Source: a virus (Duplodnaviria > Heunggongvirae > Uroviricota > Caudoviricetes). From it: 24,431 nucleotides of DNA. Below are positions 1 through 5,387 of the stretch, piece after piece. The notes beneath the pieces are model-generated. The model was not told where the DNA came from. It saw only the letters and a program-made list of their open reading frames with translations, and did no database searches. Position 1 is the first letter of the stretch. Each line of letters starts with the position of its first letter. Both the position numbers and the translations under genes were made by a program. The DNA lies in the IMG/VR virus record IMGVR_UViG_2663762939_000013; one strand, written 5' to 3'.

Positions 1-1236
1 CTACGATAACCGCGCATTCAACATGGCTATCTGTTCGTCGTTCATGTCATCAATCCACATACCGTAAATTTCATACACCATCTGCGCAGTTTCATGCCCC
101 ATTTGGCTGGCTATAAATGCCGGGTTCGCTCCTGCCGTCAACAGCCAGCAGGCAAAAGTATGCCGCGTATGGTACGGATTACGGCGGCGAATACCAGCAC
201 GTTTTACTGCTGCATTCCACCTTGCCCCCAAACTGCTTACCGAGTAATAAGGTTTTTGTTTTCCGTTACACACCCTGGGCATGAAAACAAAATGCAGTTT
301 TTGCTTTTCGGTTCTGCCGTACTCCCGATGATAAAAGGTGATTTCGCTTTTGCGATGATGCCCGGTCAGTTTGTATTGCTCCTTCAGTGCTTCAAGAGCA
401 GGCTGCAGTAGTGTTACTGTTCGGATCCCGGCATTTGTTTTTGGGGGACCGAACATATCAAGTATCGTCAGGTTTCTTCTGACATTCACTATTCCCTTTT
501 CGAGATCCACATCCTCCCACGCCAGAGCTGCCAGTTCCCCGTGACGAAGTCCTGAGTAAACGGCAAATTTCCACAAGTTCTGGCTCTGTCCTTTTTCACT
601 TTCCATTAATGCATTGAATTCTGTTTTAGATAACGGATCAGGCTTTATTCTGTTTCGCTGTAATTTTTTTACTCCTTCAAATGGTTTGGTTGATATAAAT
701 CCCGACTGATACGCAAAACGCAACAGCGAACAGAGCAGGGCGATATAGTTATCAACTGTGCGCACGGTTCTTCCTTTTTTGTTGGATCTTGGATTATCCA
801 GGTAAAGCGTTTCTCCATGCAGCAGTTCATTCCGGTAGTTTAAGATATCGCTATAACGAATATGTGATATCGGGGTACTTTCACAAATTATTATTCTGAG
901 TGTTTTTAATTGTGATTTCGTTTTCTTCATTGTGTTTGTTGTTAACTCTGTCTCTTTAATTTTTGTCCAGATATCACAAAGCTCTCCGAACGTTTTTATG
1001 ACTCTCGTTGTCACCATTTTTGCCCCAGTGCTGGACTGGGGAAAACGTCTTAAATACTCAAATTCACCGGAGTTTATTTCATGAACTATCAGCGCTCTTA
1101 AATTTCCGGCCTTTTTAATATTACTGTTTGTAATCTCCCAGCCTTTTAATGTTTCCCGACATCGTTTTCCTCGAAACATGAACCAGATGCGAATGTATCT
1201 ACCTCTAATCTCGACACCTGTTGGTAATTTAGACAT
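1..1236 (-). CDS. intR: Phage integrase, tyrosine recombinase (Rac-type IntR), 411 aa
   Basis: Complete 411-aa ORF; C-terminal tyrosine-recombinase signature residues visible (LRHGEL, HTRHTFA, VYEIYG); N-terminus MSKLPTGVEIRGRYIRIWF matches my recollection of Rac IntR; start codon 1 nt from stop of the xis-like gene. Confidence 0.9.
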   Translation of the reverse strand: MSKLPTGVEIRGRYIRIWFMFRGKRCRETLKGWEITNSNIKKAGNLRALIVHEINSGEFEYLRRFPQSSTGAKMVTTRVIKTFGELCDIWTKIKETELTTNTMKKTKSQLKTLRIIICESTPISHIRYSDILNYRNELLHGETLYLDNPRSNKKGRTVRTVDNYIALLCSLLRFAYQSGFISTKPFEGVKKLQRNRIKPDPLSKTEFNALMESEKGQSQNLWKFAVYSGLRHGELAALAWEDVDLEKGIVNVRRNLTILDMFGPPKTNAGIRTVTLLQPALEALKEQYKLTGHHRKSEITFYHREYGRTEKQKLHFVFMPRVCNGKQKPYYSVSSLGARWNAAVKRAGIRRRNPYHTRHTFACWLLTAGANPAFIASQMGHETAQMVYEIYGMWIDDMNDEQIAMLNARLS

Positions 1237-1237
1237 A

Positions 1238-1453
1238 TCATGAGTCTTTGATAAACTGATTTATCTTTGGATAGTTGTACCAGATAATCCCTCGTTTGCT
1301 GTCTGGCTTACCTAAAGGAGATACTCGTTTGAAGTGGAAGCCCTCCACCCAACAGTTCTGGCGGTATGCTTCAATTTGTCTGGCCCCCAGACCAGTGCGA
1401 AGCATCAGGCCGTATTCAACCATCCACTCTTCATTAAAGATTACTTGTGCCAT
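1238..1453 (-). CDS. ydaQ: Excisionase-like small DNA-binding protein (YdaQ/XisR-like), 71 aa
   Basis: 71-aa ORF from ATG at 1453 ([15 protein letters not shown]...), immediately upstream of the integrase in the classical xis-int arrangement; alternative upstream TTG start at 1477. Confidence 0.8.
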
Positions 1454-1531
1454 CGCATCACCTCTGGCAGGCGCCAATGTTAGACTGAAATTGACGCCCG
1501 ATGTTGATTATTAATAATCAGCTATGAAGTT

Positions 1532-1741
1532 TTAATTTGAATACAATGCAATTCTCGAGGACTGAAGTTTCTCGCAATTAAAATTTATCAGTTTTACTTT
1601 CTGCTCTCTGGAAACGCCTGCTTCTTTTTTACCTGAGAGCATTTTTTCGCATTCTGATTTCGTTAGTTTAGATTTTGAATATCTTGTCCAGTTAGTAGGA
1701 GTGCCACCTTCCTTTTCAATAGTGGCGGTAATTTTATACAT
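1532..1741 (-). CDS. ydaC: Rac prophage small protein YdaC-like, 69 aa
   Basis: ORF with ATG at 1741 (MYKITATIEKEGG...), overlapping the 3' end of ralR by 8 nt; position between ralR and ydaQ as in K-12 Rac. Longer in-frame starts exist up to 1813. Confidence 0.65.
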   Translation of the reverse strand: MYKITATIEKEGGTPTNWTRYSKSKLTKSECEKMLSGKKEAGVSREQKVKLINFNCEKLQSSRIALYSN

Positions 1742-1928
1742 GAACACCTCCATTATTATTTCCAGTGGTTCGTTTATTCCATCTTTCGAGTGCTTCTTTT
1801 TCACTTCCACCATAACCGGTTCGGGATTCGCATCCGTTACACTTCGCTCGGTAATATCCTGAAATGGCTTTCACCGTTACTGATGGACAACCACAAAATG
1901 GACATGGTTTAACATTGTCATATCTCAT
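1734..1928 (-). CDS. ralR: Restriction alleviation protein Lar/RalR (also a type I toxin DNase), 64 aa
   Basis: MRYDNVKPCPFCGCPSVTVKAISGYYRAKCNGCESRTGYGGSEKEALERWNKR; cysteine-rich zinc-ribbon-like motif (CPFCGC...CNGC); sits immediately downstream of recT as in Rac. Alternative start at 1940. Confidence 0.85.
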   Translation of the reverse strand: MRYDNVKPCPFCGCPSVTVKAISGYYRAKCNGCESRTGYGGSEKEALERWNKRTTGNNNGGVHV

Positions 1929-1984
1929 AATTTTTCTCATAAAAAATATTTCAAGTTGGCGGTGCATTACACCGCCAGGCTGAA

Positions 1985-2794
1985 TTATTCCTCTGAATTA
2001 TCGATTACACTGTATTCCCCGGTTAATACAGAGGAATCTGCAGGATCGATTGTCAGTGGTTCCTTTTCATCCATTGATACTGCACGCTGGATCTCAATTG
2101 ATACGGGCAGATATTTGAACAGGCGACGAATAGCCGTTTTCTTTGCCATTTCTTCCCAGTGAGTTACCCACGGCCCGTTATTACCAGCTTTACTCAGGCT
2201 GCGCACCAGCTCAATCTGTTTGCGCGTCATAACTTCAAACTGAGTACCTCCGTCTTTCAGTCTTGCGACAGCATAGACGTGGGTAACCGGGGCATCTTCG
2301 TTTTCTCCCGGGCGGTGTATTAACTTTTCATCAAGGCCAAATTCGAAGCTAAACTCGTCACCTTCACGGACAACACGGGCTGACAGGCTGGCGATTTGAC
2401 CAGAACGGCGAGCCAGATCAATCATGCCGCGATAGCCAATGATTAGCTGAACGTTCTTTTTACCGCTCTTTTCGTTTTTATTACCAAAAGGCAGTAAATA
2501 TGCATGACCGAGGGCGCTACCTGGCTCAAGTCCGAGCTGTGAACACTGTACGATCGCACTGACAAAACTCATAGTGTCACAGTTTCCTAACGCCGGAACT
2601 TTACGAATTTCTGTAGTGGCGATACGGATCATACGTTCAGCCGTCATATGGCGTGGAAGAGCTGCTGCCAGTTGCTCTTTCATTGATGGCTGGTTAATAA
2701 AACTAATCACGTCGCTATTTTTAACTGCTGCTGGTGCACGGTTTCCCTGAGTTTTTTGCAGATCGGCTTTTGCGATTGGTGGTTGCTTAGTCAT
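1985..2794 (-). CDS. recT: RecT single-strand annealing recombinase, 269 aa
   Basis: Protein from [35 protein letters not shown]... recognised as RecT; start overlaps recE 3' end by 8 nt (translational coupling). Confidence 0.95.
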
Positions 2795-5387
2795 TTGCAT
2801 ATTCCTTAGCCCAGCGGGGCAGTGATAATGTCTTAATAGCTGGCCATTCATCGGTATTCAGGCAGTCAGACAGGGTTCGCAGATTGCGGTGATATTCCTG
2901 TTGACCTGCCAGTTTTGCTTCTTCGCCCATCATGAAAATTTCAACCGGATAACGTCCGCATTCAATAGTTGTGCTGGCAACCAGAAAAACGAAAGTTGGC
3001 TGCACTCCAAACAGTGCTTCATAACCGTCACTGTAGAATGCATCCTGAACGTGATAGCGGTAGTCGTAATAAGCGGTTTTGAATCGTTGAATATCCGCCG
3101 TAGTTTTCACGTCCATGATCCAGTGAAATTCAGGGATAATTTTGTCCGGACGGCACCGACACAAAATTCCTGTTTCAGGATCTTCCCAGTAAATTGATGA
3201 TTCAGCGTGTCCGGCGCTTTCAACAAGCCATTGCCCCAGCGGCAAAGCCATAACGCTTTGATACATGAGTTCAATTTTCCGGCCTTCTTCCGCAGTGATA
3301 ACCGTTTTTCCTGTGCTTGCGCATTCCATCAGAAACGCTTTCTCTTCTTCTTTTCCGGCGTTTGTACGGCGGTTAAATTCAGGTGCTACGATAAAGCGGT
3401 TACTGAATTCTTCCGGTTCAAGTACCCGGCAGTGGAAAGCAGTTCCTAAATCGAGCGTTTTTGTCTTTGTGGTGTCCACGGGGGCATTTTTACGCCACAA
3501 ATATAGTGCCGGAGTATCAGCAATGTCATCGAGCTGAGACTTACTGATACCGGGACCCGCGTGGTAATTCTCATTCGAAATTCCGTAATAAATACCTGGC
3601 TCTATGTCTTCTACGATTACGGGATCTGCGACTTCGCCAGTTTCATCACTGCAATCGTGATGCGGATCGCTGCCAGCATTCTCATTGTGCGGATGTTCAG
3701 CGCCTTCCATTTCCTCCGGATCATTTTCCTTAGCTTCAACCTGACTCTCTTCATCGAATGTTTCCTGGTATGTTGCGTCGCCCATCACCGCACCACAGTC
3801 AGGGCAGTTATCCCCGCCAGTCTGGCCGCAGGCATTGCAGGCTATTTCCGGTTCCTGTTGCACTACTGGCTCAGGTTGATTCATATCTGGGCTGGTTTTT
3901 TCCGTTTCTGGCTGGTTCTGGTACACACAATCGCGAGTCTGGATCCCCTTTACCCATTTCGGATCGTTCGGGTCGCTAATTCCGTCAACAAATTCACCAC
4001 GTGATGCAGCAAGCAATTTATCGGCATCGACAGGATTTTTTGATGGAATGTTTTTCCGGGCTTCATGGAGTTCTGCCCGCAGTTCCTGATATTTCGCATC
4101 AACAGAATTTACCTGTGACTGAGCATCCAGCGGCTGCGTGTCCTGATGATGTTCAGTTGCGTCCGGTTCCATTGTTTCAGCCTCTCCCTGTTCAACTGCC
4201 GTTGTTCCAGATGGTTGCGGTTTTTCTTCATCATCCTGTTTTCCTTCTTCTGTTACTCGCTGCGGCATCGGGGCAGAGGAGCGACTGCAGGCAATATCCA
4301 CGATTTCCGGATCAGGGTTGGCATGATCGGTTTCAGTCAGTACTTTGTTCAGATATTCAGTGACGTGCGCGGGGATGACCTCGATCCCAATTGGTGCTTC
4401 TTTTACGGACGCAACCACGATGGCGCGGGAATAATCCAGCCCGCCAGGCATGGTGATGAATTTGTCGCGGAAAACAGAAAAGGGCGGTTTATTTTCAGCG
4501 ATAATTTCCTCAATGCGTTTAGCGTGTGCCGGATGAAGGTTATAGATGTCCAGATCCATTGAACGGGCCAGTACGCCAGTGGCTACGTCGCGCGCCAGTG
4601 ACGTCAGATCGTGTACGAAACCTTCGCCGCGATCGGTGAGGTTTCCGCCGCCAGCATTAGCACCGGAAGCCGTGCGAGTGATGTGTGAAACACGATTACC
4701 CTTCATCCACTCTTTTGTCAGCAGTCCTCGATCGGTGTAGTCAGCGTTCAGGTATGCTTCGAAAAAAGCAGTTATCAGTCCCAGGTTTGAATTACCAGGA
4801 TTAGGGAAAACTTTGTCAGTGTCACGAACCAGTTTGTGGAGTTCGCGAATTTCCAGCGGGTCGAGCAGGCTGGTTTTGTGGGAAACAGCCAGGGCAGTAA
4901 CAGCCGGTAGTTCTTCAGCCCGAGCAATGTGTAATGCCTGGAGTCCGTCGCGTGAAACGTGCGTTACCGGTTTTTCGCTGCCGTGTTGAGCAAGCCAACG
5001 AATGGGCAGTTCCTGGCCAGAAATTGGGAGTAGCATATTCTCCTCAATCTCAGTCATGTCTTCGCCGTTGACGTTGGTATTGCCTTGATAATGAGCGTTG
5101 TCTGGTGCTGCTCCCGGTTTTAGTTCCCATGTCATGGAGTCTTTGCTGAGTTGATAGCGTTCACTCCAGGTAAAATCGATCTCACCTTCAGCGGGCAGGT
5201 CATTAACGACAGGAAAATTCGTGGCAACAGCTTTAAAATAGCTGCTCAGTTTTTTACCTGACTTAACGATCAGGTAGTCCAGAGTGGCACAGGTCGATTC
5301 AAAATCGTTGCTTGCCCACAGGACGACGTCAGGTTCACCGGATGATTTTTTCGCTTTCCGTAACAGGAAGAGTGGTTTTGTGCTCAT
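2787..5387 (-). CDS. recE: RecE exonuclease VIII, 866 aa
   Basis: 866-aa ORF ([30 protein letters not shown]...), length and sequence as I recall for Rac RecE; acidic low-complexity middle region, exonuclease domain at C-terminus; upstream of and overlapping recT. Confidence 0.95.

What the first reader, a model, noticed from the sequence alone, without database searches (positions are those of the whole stretch)
1491..1967. RalR/Lar toxin gene with a candidate antisense promoter on the plus strand (possible RalA-type sRNA antitoxin)
RalR (1734-1928, minus strand) is, as I recall the literature, both a restriction-alleviation protein and a type I toxin DNase countered by the antisense sRNA RalA. 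On the plus strand there is a sigma70-like promoter (TTGACG at 1491-1496, about 15-17 bp spacer, TAATAAT around 1512-1518) pointing into the antisense of ydaC and the ralR 3' end, with no plus-strand ORF to serve. That is where an antitoxin sRNA would be expected.
Basis: partly seen in the sequence, partly recalled or inferred. Interest (0 to 1): 0.45.

Follow-up and report, generated by a model that had tools for sequence, protein, structure and literature searches.

The report
Known RalR/RalA toxin-antitoxin of Rac prophage

Summary
The window is the left end of a K-12-type Rac prophage (window x = NC_000913.3 x+1,411,999). ralR is at 1734-1928 (-), as stated. The motif TTGACG-16-AATAAT (1491-1518) is present and is the best sigma70 match nearby (10/12), but matches this good are no more frequent in the window than chance.

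It predicts a start near 1525. Three lines of evidence place the real start about 30 nt downstream:
- Primer extension puts the RalA 5' end at G1557, using RNA from a plasmid that lacks 1491-1518.
- Remapped dRNA-seq lists a single ralA start, at 1554.
- That start is 7 nt past a TACAAT hexamer (1542-1547), which is TACAAT or TATAAT in all 20 distinct homologous upstream sequences. TTGACG is lost in 7 of the 20, beyond a mosaic junction near 1503.

So the sRNA interpretation is right and already known; the promoter assignment is probably wrong.

Side observations: rcbA/ydaC, antisense to RalA, evolves as a real protein gene. The 16-nt RalA-ralR pairing is not conserved outside the K-12-type lineage.

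The parts
1734..1928 (-). ralR (lar): 64-aa Lar-family restriction-alleviation protein, published as the DNase toxin of a type I toxin-antitoxin pair
   Evidence: ORF; K-12 annotation; NCBIfam NF007260 166 bits and Pfam PF14354 53.5 bits; function from PMC4041452
1557..1735 (+). ralA: 179-nt sRNA antitoxin as annotated. The 5' end was mapped by experiment; the 3' end was only predicted
   Evidence: Rfam RF02694 225.1 bits, model positions 1-179 of 179; RefSeq ncRNA b4714 at 1413556-1413734; primer extension and terminator prediction
1554..1557 (+). RalA 5' ends: 1554 from dRNA-seq (Thomason 2015 data remapped) and G1557 from primer extension and from an extracellular RNA fragment
   Evidence: PMC7967276 supplementary table 1 gives ralA TSP 1413553; exRNA 5'-GAGGACTGAAGT; PMC4041452
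1542..1547 (+). TACAAT: most likely -10 hexamer of the ralA promoter (-12 to -7 relative to the start at 1554). No good -35 lies at a 16-18 bp spacing (CAGCTA, AGCTAT and TCAGCT each match 2 of 6 by my reading)
   Evidence: Sequence. TACAAT in 12 and consensus TATAAT in 8 of 20 distinct homologous upstream sequences. Lies inside the 1532-1928 plasmid insert that still produced RalA. The assignment as -10 is an inference
1504..1518 (+). A+T-rich tract TTGATTATTAATAAT, which includes the palindrome ATTATTAATAAT (1507-1518). It sits at -50 to -36 of the 1554 start, where an UP element would lie (inference)
   Evidence: 79% A+T over 1501-1553; nearly invariant among homologues, and the conserved block begins at about 1504
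1491..1496 (+). TTGACG: the finding's candidate -35. It lies at -63 to -58 of the mapped start, on the variable (xisR) side of a mosaic junction
   Evidence: Replaced by a 3-of-6 hexamer in 7 of 20 distinct upstream sequences
1513..1518 (+). AATAAT: the finding's candidate -10. It is conserved, but no start is recorded 5-9 nt downstream of it
1619..1634 (+). RalA nt 63-78, TGCTTCTTTTTTACCT: the published 16-nt region that pairs with ralR mRNA
   Evidence: 15 of 16 positions pair, one of them G-U; mutagenesis in PMC4041452
1791..1806 (-). Target of RalA in ralR mRNA (CDS nt 123-138, AAGTGAAAAAGAAGCA)
   Evidence: PMC4041452 Table 1
1702..1735 (+). Predicted RalA terminator: short G+C-rich stem (5 bp in the paper, 6 bp in my fold), 14-nt loop, tail GUAAUUUU. 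Weak and not mapped by experiment
   Evidence: prediction only; hairpin seen but not in the minimum-energy fold with more 3' context; no terminator-like site in the scan; no Term-seq 3' end in the held supplement
1532..1741 (-). rcbA (ydaC), DUF1187 protein gene. It contains all of ralA except ralA's last base on the opposite strand, and overlaps the ralR 3' end by 8 nt
   Evidence: Pfam PF06688 131.7 bits; dN/dS 0.04-0.18 with third-position bias
1468..1474 (-). Divergent xisR transcription starts (1468 and 1474), 80-86 bp from the ralA start. The xisR promoter must therefore overlap the region that holds the finding's motif
   Evidence: PMC7967276 supplementary table 1; xisR reported as RpoS-induced
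1238..1453 (-). xisR (ydaQ), the Rac excisionase
   Evidence: Pfam DUF1233; PMC4632033

Best explanation
The region is the published RalR/RalA type I toxin-antitoxin locus of a K-12-type Rac prophage. ralR (1734-1928, minus strand) encodes a Lar-family protein that acts as a DNase toxin when over-produced. RalA (1557-1735, plus strand, antisense to rcbA/ydaC) is a poorly expressed, Hfq-dependent sRNA. Its nt 63-78 pair with nt 123-138 of the ralR coding region and block RalR synthesis; these functional steps are shown in the literature and were not tested here. RalA most likely starts at 1554-1557, from a weak promoter whose -10 is TACAAT (1542-1547). That promoter has no good -35 and may be helped by the A+T-rich tract 1504-1518 acting as an UP-like element (inference). 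The finding's TTGACG-16-AATAAT motif is a near miss. Its '-10' is part of that A+T-rich tract, and its '-35' lies in the variable DNA that carries the divergent xisR promoter. It is probably not the source of RalA.
For: - Identity of the locus: 100% match to K-12 records over 1200-2100; RefSeq annotation of ralR, ralA, rcbA and xisR at the matching coordinates; Rfam RalA 225.1 bits, full length; RalR equivalog and Lar family hits; the 16-nt pairing reproduced, 15 of 16 positions.
- Start site: primer extension at G1557; dRNA-seq remapping lists a single ralA start at 1413553 = window 1554; an extracellular RalA fragment begins GAGGACTGAAGT = 1557.
- Geometry: TACAAT ends exactly 7 nt before 1554.
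- Independence from the motif: the plasmid that gave both the primer-extension product and the antitoxin activity carries only window 1532-1928.
- Conservation: TACAAT or TATAAT in all 20 distinct upstream sequences, with 8 changed towards consensus. The conserved block starts at about 1504. TTGACG is lost in 7 of the 20. L097, a more diverged Rac-like locus, keeps TTGATTTTTAATAATCAGCTAT and TACAAT but not TTGACG.
Against: - The 1554 start comes from a secondary re-analysis. I could not see read counts or the original Thomason table, because the paper is not held.
- RalA is so poorly expressed that a second weak start near 1525 could go unrecorded.
- In the plasmid, vector DNA replaces everything upstream of 1532, so a vector-derived -35 or read-through followed by processing cannot be excluded for that experiment.
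- G1557 lies 10 nt past TACAAT, which is longer than usual.
- The AATAAT hexamer at 1513-1518 is as well conserved as TACAAT. This is compatible with a promoter role, although equally with an UP element or the xisR promoter.
- The UP-element role is pure inference.
Confidence: 0.75

Rival explanations
1. The TTGACG-16-AATAAT motif is a genuine second ralA promoter, conditional or weak. It would start near 1525 and give a 5'-extended RalA of about 211 nt, in tandem with the TACAAT promoter.
For: Best sigma70 match in the region, 10 of 12. AATAAT is conserved in 19 of 20 distinct sequences and is TATAAT in the other one. TTGACG is present in the majority lineage, 13 of 20. pBAD-ralA, which gave full antitoxin activity, included 124 bp upstream of RalA and therefore this motif. 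Low expression and H-NS-type silencing of Rac could hide a start in standard conditions.
Against: No start near 1525 in the dRNA-seq-derived table, which lists several starts for many other genes. The -35 is lost in 7 of 20 distinct sequences, which still keep RalA at more than 210 bits. In the predicted fold, a 1525 start replaces the 5' stem-loop that the paper credits with stabilising RalA. Matches this good are no more frequent in the window than chance.
Confidence: 0.12
2. The motif is the real and only ralA promoter. The primary transcript starts near 1525, and the 1554/1557 ends are processing products.
For: Primer extension cannot tell primary ends from processed ones. The consensus match is better than that of the TACAAT promoter, which lacks a -35.
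Against: dRNA-seq and Cappable-seq enrich triphosphorylated ends, and they report 1554. The same 5' end arises from a plasmid that lacks the motif altogether. TACAAT sits at the canonical distance from 1554 and shifts towards consensus in variants.
Confidence: 0.05
3. Plus-strand transcription here is a low-level antisense by-product of an A+T-rich divergent promoter region. The stretch is conserved because of the rcbA/ydaC protein gene, and the antitoxin effect of RalA appears only on over-expression and is specific to the K-12 lineage.
For: - rcbA is under strong purifying selection: dN/dS 0.04-0.18, with substitutions mostly at third codon positions. It is a Pfam family, DUF1187, at 131.7 bits.
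- RalA's fold is no more stable than shuffled sequence, z = -0.19.
- Rfam scores fall to 35 and 29 bits in Citrobacter-type loci.
- The 16-nt pairing falls to 6-8 of 16 in six diverged lineages, and the K-12 helix is not above shuffles, p about 0.10.
- Two natural contigs delete RalA nt 59-70 yet keep an intact RalR.
- RalA was detected in only 61 of 3,376 data sets.
Against: Published genetics: ydaC start-codon and stop-codon mutants still neutralise RalR. Point mutations in the 16 nt reduce antitoxin activity and a four-base change abolishes it, while nearby mutations do not. RalA supplied in trans from pBAD rescues. Hfq is required and binds RalA. The TACAAT hexamer is conserved and drifts towards consensus, which suggests selection on the promoter.
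Confidence: 0.15

Closest known systems
RalR/RalA type I toxin-antitoxin system of E. coli K-12 Rac prophage (Guo et al. 2014, Nucleic Acids Res 42:6448; PMC4041452)
   Same: It is this system. The sequence is identical over 1200-2100, the gene order is the same (intR-xisR-rcbA/ralA-ralR-recT-recE), the RalA coordinates are the same, and so is the 16-nt complementarity.
   Different: Nothing differs in the locus itself. The window has four substitutions relative to MG1655 in recT/recE, outside the locus. The finding adds a promoter proposal that the paper does not make and that the available start-site data do not support.
Unconventional, divergently or trans-encoded type I antitoxins with short complementarity (TisB/IstR-1, ShoB/OhsC, ZorO/OrzO)
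   Same: The antitoxin sRNA is encoded next to the toxin gene without overlapping it, and acts through a short imperfect duplex of 16-21 nt. This comparison is made by the RalA authors.
   Different: RalR is a soluble 64-aa DNase / restriction-alleviation protein, not a small membrane peptide. RalA pairs inside the coding region and needs Hfq. RalA is also fully complementary, in cis, to a neighbouring protein gene, rcbA.
Lar / Ral restriction-alleviation proteins (Pfam PF14354, TIGR03655)
   Same: RalR matches both family models.
   Different: The family is defined by alleviation of type I restriction. The toxin role, and the partnership with an sRNA, are documented only for the Rac copy.

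Membership tests
RalA sRNA (Rfam RF02694) | Covariance-model score at or above the curated gathering threshold, over the full length | tested here: met
   225.1 bits against a threshold of 170, model positions 1-179 of 179, window 1557-1735 (+)
RalA sRNA (Rfam RF02694) | Encoded next to ralR on the opposite strand, within the ydaC/rcbA reading frame | tested here: met
   RefSeq annotation of NC_000913.3 mapped onto the window; ORFs
RalA sRNA (Rfam RF02694) | 16-nt complementarity of RalA nt 63-78 to the ralR coding region | tested here: met
   15 of 16 positions pair (14 Watson-Crick, 1 G-U), 11 of them contiguous and perfect, with ralR CDS nt 123-138. Not statistically unusual on its own
RalA sRNA (Rfam RF02694) | Hfq-dependent antitoxin activity | not testable with these tools
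   Published only (PMC4041452)
RalR toxin / Lar restriction-alleviation family | Sequence match to the RalR equivalog model and to the Lar family models | tested here: met
   NF007260 166 bits (cut-off 113); TIGR03655 55.3 bits (cut-off 39.6); PF14354 53.5 bits (cut-off 28.6)
Type I toxin-antitoxin system | A protein toxin whose synthesis is blocked by a base-pairing RNA antitoxin | not testable with these tools
   The components and the complementarity are present. Toxicity and translational block are from PMC4041452
Functional sigma70 promoter at 1491-1518 (the finding's candidate) | Match to the -35 and -10 consensus at a 16-18 bp spacing | tested here: met
   TTGACG / 16 / AATAAT, 10 of 12. 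Such matches occur at chance frequency in the window
Functional sigma70 promoter at 1491-1518 (the finding's candidate) | A primary transcript 5' end 5-9 nt downstream of the -10 (about 1523-1527) | tested here: not met
   The only plus-strand ralA start in the remapped dRNA-seq/Cappable-seq table is 1413553 = window 1554; primer extension gives 1557. Caveat: secondary source and a low-abundance RNA
Functional sigma70 promoter at 1491-1518 (the finding's candidate) | Required for production of the downstream RNA | tested here: not met
   RalA, with its 5' end and its antitoxin activity, was obtained from a plasmid insert covering only window 1532-1928 (literature evidence)
Functional sigma70 promoter at 1491-1518 (the finding's candidate) | Both hexamers conserved among loci that keep the RNA | tested here: not met
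   -10 kept in all 20, but -35 reduced to 3 of 6 in 7 of 20 distinct upstream sequences. Homology breaks at about 1503
Functional promoter with -10 TACAAT at 1542-1547 (alternative) | Start at the canonical distance, hexamer conserved, and located inside the minimal active fragment | tested here: met
   Ends 7 nt before 1554. TACAAT or TATAAT in all 20. Lies within 1532-1928. No mutational test exists

The most novel reading that the evidence does not exclude
In its native single-copy setting RalA may act mainly as a cis-antisense RNA against a ralR-rcbA bicistronic mRNA: 179 nt of perfect complementarity to the rcbA part, with the two reading frames overlapping by 8 nt. rcbA/ydaC would then be a genuine, selected protein gene, contrary to the original paper's statement that it is not translated. 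The 16-nt trans pairing, and hence the 'type I TA' behaviour, would be a recent overlay specific to the K-12 lineage. The locus would be a three-part module (RalR, RcbA protein, RalA RNA) and not a simple toxin-antitoxin pair.
Probability: 0.2. Interest if true: 0.35.

Novelty: already known. Interest (0 to 1): 0.1.

Why it matters
It matters little as a discovery. RalR/RalA was described in 2014, is annotated in RefSeq and has its own Rfam family, so the scan has rediscovered a textbook-level K-12 feature from raw sequence.

The useful results are two:
- A correction. The strongest consensus promoter match in the intergenic region is not where the sRNA starts. The likely ralA promoter is a '-10-only' element (TACAAT, 1542-1547) behind an A+T-rich tract, and it has never been tested by mutation.
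- Two caveats about the published model that follow from comparative data. The gene antisense to RalA evolves as a protein-coding gene, and the RalA-ralR pairing is not conserved outside the K-12-type Rac lineage.

These points are of interest to people who work on Rac or on type I toxin-antitoxin systems, but they open no new question of general reach.

Tried and rejected
- Independent start-site tables. The held supplements of the Cappable-seq paper (PMC4782308), SMRT-Cappable-seq (PMC6131387) and in vitro run-off ROSE (PMC10301672) contain nothing in the 14134xx-14135xx range, probably because the files were truncated when stored. Thomason et al. 2015 itself is not held. The 1554 start therefore rests on one secondary re-analysis.
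- RalA 3' end. The Term-seq supplement of Adams et al. 2021 has no 3' end at 14135xx or 14137xx, so the 3' end stays unverified.
- RIL-seq or Hfq-interactome literature on RalA: no paper found.
- Primer table of Guo et al. 2014 (to see whether qRT-PCR probed upstream of +1): the supplement is not held.
- Full-length RNA duplex energies between RalA and ralR mRNA were uninformative, because long forced duplexes gave values no different from shuffles. I replaced them with position-wise pairing and a longest-helix test.
- A first version of that script timed out.
- I tried to assign -10 and -35 hexamers to the xisR starts at 1468 and 1474. Nothing convincing emerged: TAACAT at 1482-1477 is the best -10-like hexamer, and its spacing is poor. 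I make no claim about the xisR promoter.
- An extended -10 (TGn) for TACAAT was considered and rejected, because the TG at 1538-1539 is one base out of register.

Full report
WHAT THE WINDOW IS. The first 5.4 kb carry, all on the minus strand, intR (1-1236), xisR (1238-1453), rcbA/ydaC (1532-1741), ralR (1734-1928), recT (1985-2794) and recE (2787-5387). Window 1200-2100 is 100% identical to many E. coli records, including K-12 MG1655 derivatives, and matches are found in 1,930 of 5,426 complete E. coli genomes. Window coordinate x equals NC_000913.3 coordinate x + 1,411,999. The first 4 kb differ from MG1655 at only four positions, all in recT/recE. This is the left end of a K-12-type Rac prophage.

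CHECK OF THE OBSERVATION.
- ralR is at 1734-1928 (-). It matches the RalR equivalog model (166 bits, cut-off 113) and the Lar restriction-alleviation family.
- On the plus strand, TTGACG (1491-1496), a 16-bp spacer and AATAAT (1513-1518) give a 10-of-12 sigma70 match, the best in 1200-2200.
- No plus-strand ORF of 25 aa or more follows it.

The match is not statistically remarkable. The whole window has 3 sites of this quality on both strands, against 4.6 +/- 2.1 in Markov simulations. The '-10' sits in a 79% A+T stretch. It is also half of a palindrome, ATTATTAATAAT, which produces a mirror-image promoter-like hit on the other strand.

THE sRNA IS REAL AND KNOWN. Rfam's RalA model (RF02694) matches 1557-1735 (+) over its full length at 225.1 bits, against a gathering score of 170. 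It is the only Rfam hit in the window. RefSeq annotates ncRNA ralA (b4714) at exactly these coordinates. Guo et al. 2014 (PMC4041452) showed the following:
- RalR is a DNase toxin.
- The DNA of ydaC neutralises it as an RNA, not as a protein.
- RalA acts in trans when supplied from a second plasmid.
- A 16-nt region of RalA (nt 63-78) pairs with the ralR coding region.
- Hfq is required.

I reproduced the complementarity. RalA 1619-1634 (TGCTTCTTTTTTACCT) pairs with ralR CDS nt 123-138 (AAGTGAAAAAGAAGCA) at 15 of 16 positions, one of them a G-U pair. It is also already in the databases.

THE PROMOTER ASSIGNMENT IS PROBABLY WRONG. The candidate promoter predicts a start at about 1524-1527. Four lines of evidence point about 30 nt further downstream.
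1. Primer extension placed the RalA 5' end at G1557.
2. The RNA for that experiment came from pCA24N-ralR-ralA because chromosomal expression was too low. That insert runs only from the ralR start codon to the ydaC stop codon, window 1532-1928, so it lacks the candidate promoter entirely. It still produced the RNA and the antitoxin activity.
3. Kiselev et al. 2021 (PMC7967276) remapped the Thomason 2015 dRNA-seq and Ettwiller 2016 Cappable-seq reads onto NC_000913.3. They list one start for ralA, 1413553 = window 1554, and two for the divergent xisR, at window 1468 and 1474. Nothing is listed near 1525. An extracellular RalA fragment also begins at 1557.
4. A TACAAT hexamer at 1542-1547 ends exactly 7 nt before 1554, the canonical distance. 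It also lies inside the minimal plasmid insert.

COMPARATIVE TEST. I fetched 167 loci that encode RalR relatives (many contigs were fetched twice). Of these, 154 carry a recognisable RalA with 100 nt of upstream sequence, which collapse to 20 distinct upstream sequences.
- The hexamer at 1542-1547 is TACAAT in 12 and the perfect consensus TATAAT in 8. The variation is confined to the one non-consensus position.
- The conserved block starts at about 1504. Upstream of it a group of loci carries unrelated sequence, a mosaic junction with a different xis-side module.
- At the -35 position, 7 of the 20 have a 3-of-6 hexamer in place of TTGACG. RalA in one such locus (L090) still scores 219 bits.
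- A more diverged Rac-like locus, L097, keeps TTGATTTTTAATAATCAGCTAT and TACAAT but not TTGACG.

The AATAAT hexamer is conserved too. Relative to the 1554 start it sits at -41 to -36, inside the A+T-rich tract 1504-1518, where an UP element would lie. That role is my inference. No hexamer at 16-18 bp from TACAAT resembles TTGACA, so this is a weak, '-10-only' type of promoter. [quoted passage not shown]

WHAT REMAINS OPEN ON THE PROMOTER. The start-site evidence is second-hand, and I could not see read counts. The primary paper is not held, and three other start-site or run-off supplements contained nothing for this region. A weak or conditional second start near 1525 cannot be excluded, and I give it about 0.12. 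The idea that 1525 is the only primary start, with 1554/1557 as processed ends, gets about 0.05. It conflicts with enrichment of triphosphorylated ends and with the plasmid result.

THINGS NOTICED ABOUT THE PUBLISHED MODEL.
(a) rcbA/ydaC, which the 2014 paper concluded is not translated, behaves as a protein-coding gene in evolution. The ORF stays open at 62-69 codons in all six diverged lineages. dN/dS is 0.04-0.18, and substitutions concentrate at third positions, for example 4, 8 and 26 by codon position between L008 and L093. It belongs to Pfam DUF1187 at 131.7 bits.
(b) Outside the K-12-type lineage the RalA model scores only 35 and 29 bits. In four of the five Citrobacter-type loci compared (L008, L009, L092, L093) the sequence upstream of the RalA-equivalent 5' end lies inside another gene's coding region, with no TACAAT. 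In the fifth (L094) it is an unrelated A+T-rich stretch that carries neither hexamer.
(c) The 16-nt pairing falls to 6-8 of 16 in six diverged lineages, and no alternative helix exceeds shuffled controls. Even the 14-bp K-12 helix is matched by 10% of shuffles, because a U-rich RNA faces a purine-rich mRNA. The pairing therefore rests on the published mutagenesis and not on conservation.
(d) RalA's predicted fold is no more stable than shuffled sequence, z = -0.19. Its terminator is weak and was only predicted: a 14-nt loop and four U residues. No terminator-like site was found by the scan, and no Term-seq end appears in the held supplement.
(e) Two natural contigs carry a 12-nt in-frame deletion (window 1615-1626 = RalA nt 59-70) that removes half of the pairing site, including the T63 and G64 that the paper found important, while RalR stays intact.

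None of this overturns the genetics of Guo et al.: ydaC start and stop mutants still protect, point mutants in the 16 nt lose function, and RalA rescues in trans. It does suggest that the RNA antitoxin is a young overlay specific to one lineage, lying on top of a conserved ralR-rcbA gene pair.

VERDICT. The feature is already known (published 2014, in RefSeq and in Rfam). Interest is low.

Noticed in passing
window 1532-1741 (-); L008, L009, L092, L093, L094 and L097 at about 1688-1900: rcbA/ydaC, which the RalA paper says does not encode a protein, is under strong purifying selection as a coding sequence: dN/dS 0.04-0.18, third-position bias, ORF kept at 62-69 codons, Pfam DUF1187 at 131.7 bits. 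RalA lies fully antisense to it.
   Followed up: yes
window 1619-1634 and 1791-1806; diverged loci L097, L093, L092, L008, L094, L009: The 16-nt RalA-ralR complementarity (15 of 16 in K-12) drops to 6-8 of 16 in diverged RalR/YdaC loci, with no compensating helix elsewhere. The K-12 helix itself is matched by about 10% of shuffled RalA sequences.
   Followed up: yes
window 1615-1626; L015 (= L126) and L024 (= L135): Two independent viral/prophage contigs carry a 12-nt in-frame deletion that removes RalA nt 59-70, half of the published pairing site, while keeping an intact 64-aa RalR. This is a natural test of how essential the pairing is.
   Followed up: partly
window ~1503 (junction); L060, L068, L085, L088, L090 group: Homology to the K-12 sequence stops abruptly about 50 bp upstream of the RalA start in a subset of Rac-like prophages. 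This is a mosaic junction between the ralA/rcbA module and a different xis/int-side module.
   Followed up: partly
window 1555: A common T1555A polymorphism creates a stop codon that shortens RcbA from 69 to 62 aa. It lies between the two mapped RalA 5' ends (1554 and 1557), so it could also change the initiating nucleotide.
   Followed up: no
window 1507-1518 and 1468-1474 (-): The palindrome ATTATTAATAAT lies between divergent starts only 80-86 bp apart (xisR at 1468/1474, ralA at 1554). xisR is reported to be RpoS-induced, but I could not assign convincing xisR promoter hexamers. The palindrome might be a shared regulatory site.
   Followed up: partly
L008 1868-2245 and L009 1895-2287: In Citrobacter-type loci a 125-130-aa cysteine-rich ORF follows the ydaC homologue directly (start and stop overlap in L009). 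It occupies the place of the K-12 A+T-rich intergenic region, so the ralA promoter region appears to be absent there.
   Followed up: no
window 2110, 2615, 3013, 3658: Four single-base differences from MG1655 within recT/recE. The window is a K-12-like Rac prophage but not the MG1655 reference sequence itself.
   Followed up: no
L005 (contig CALWLV010000260.1): A 2.9-kb contig binned as a 'Roseburia sp.' MAG carries an E. coli-identical ralR/ralA locus. This is almost certainly a binning contaminant.
   Followed up: no
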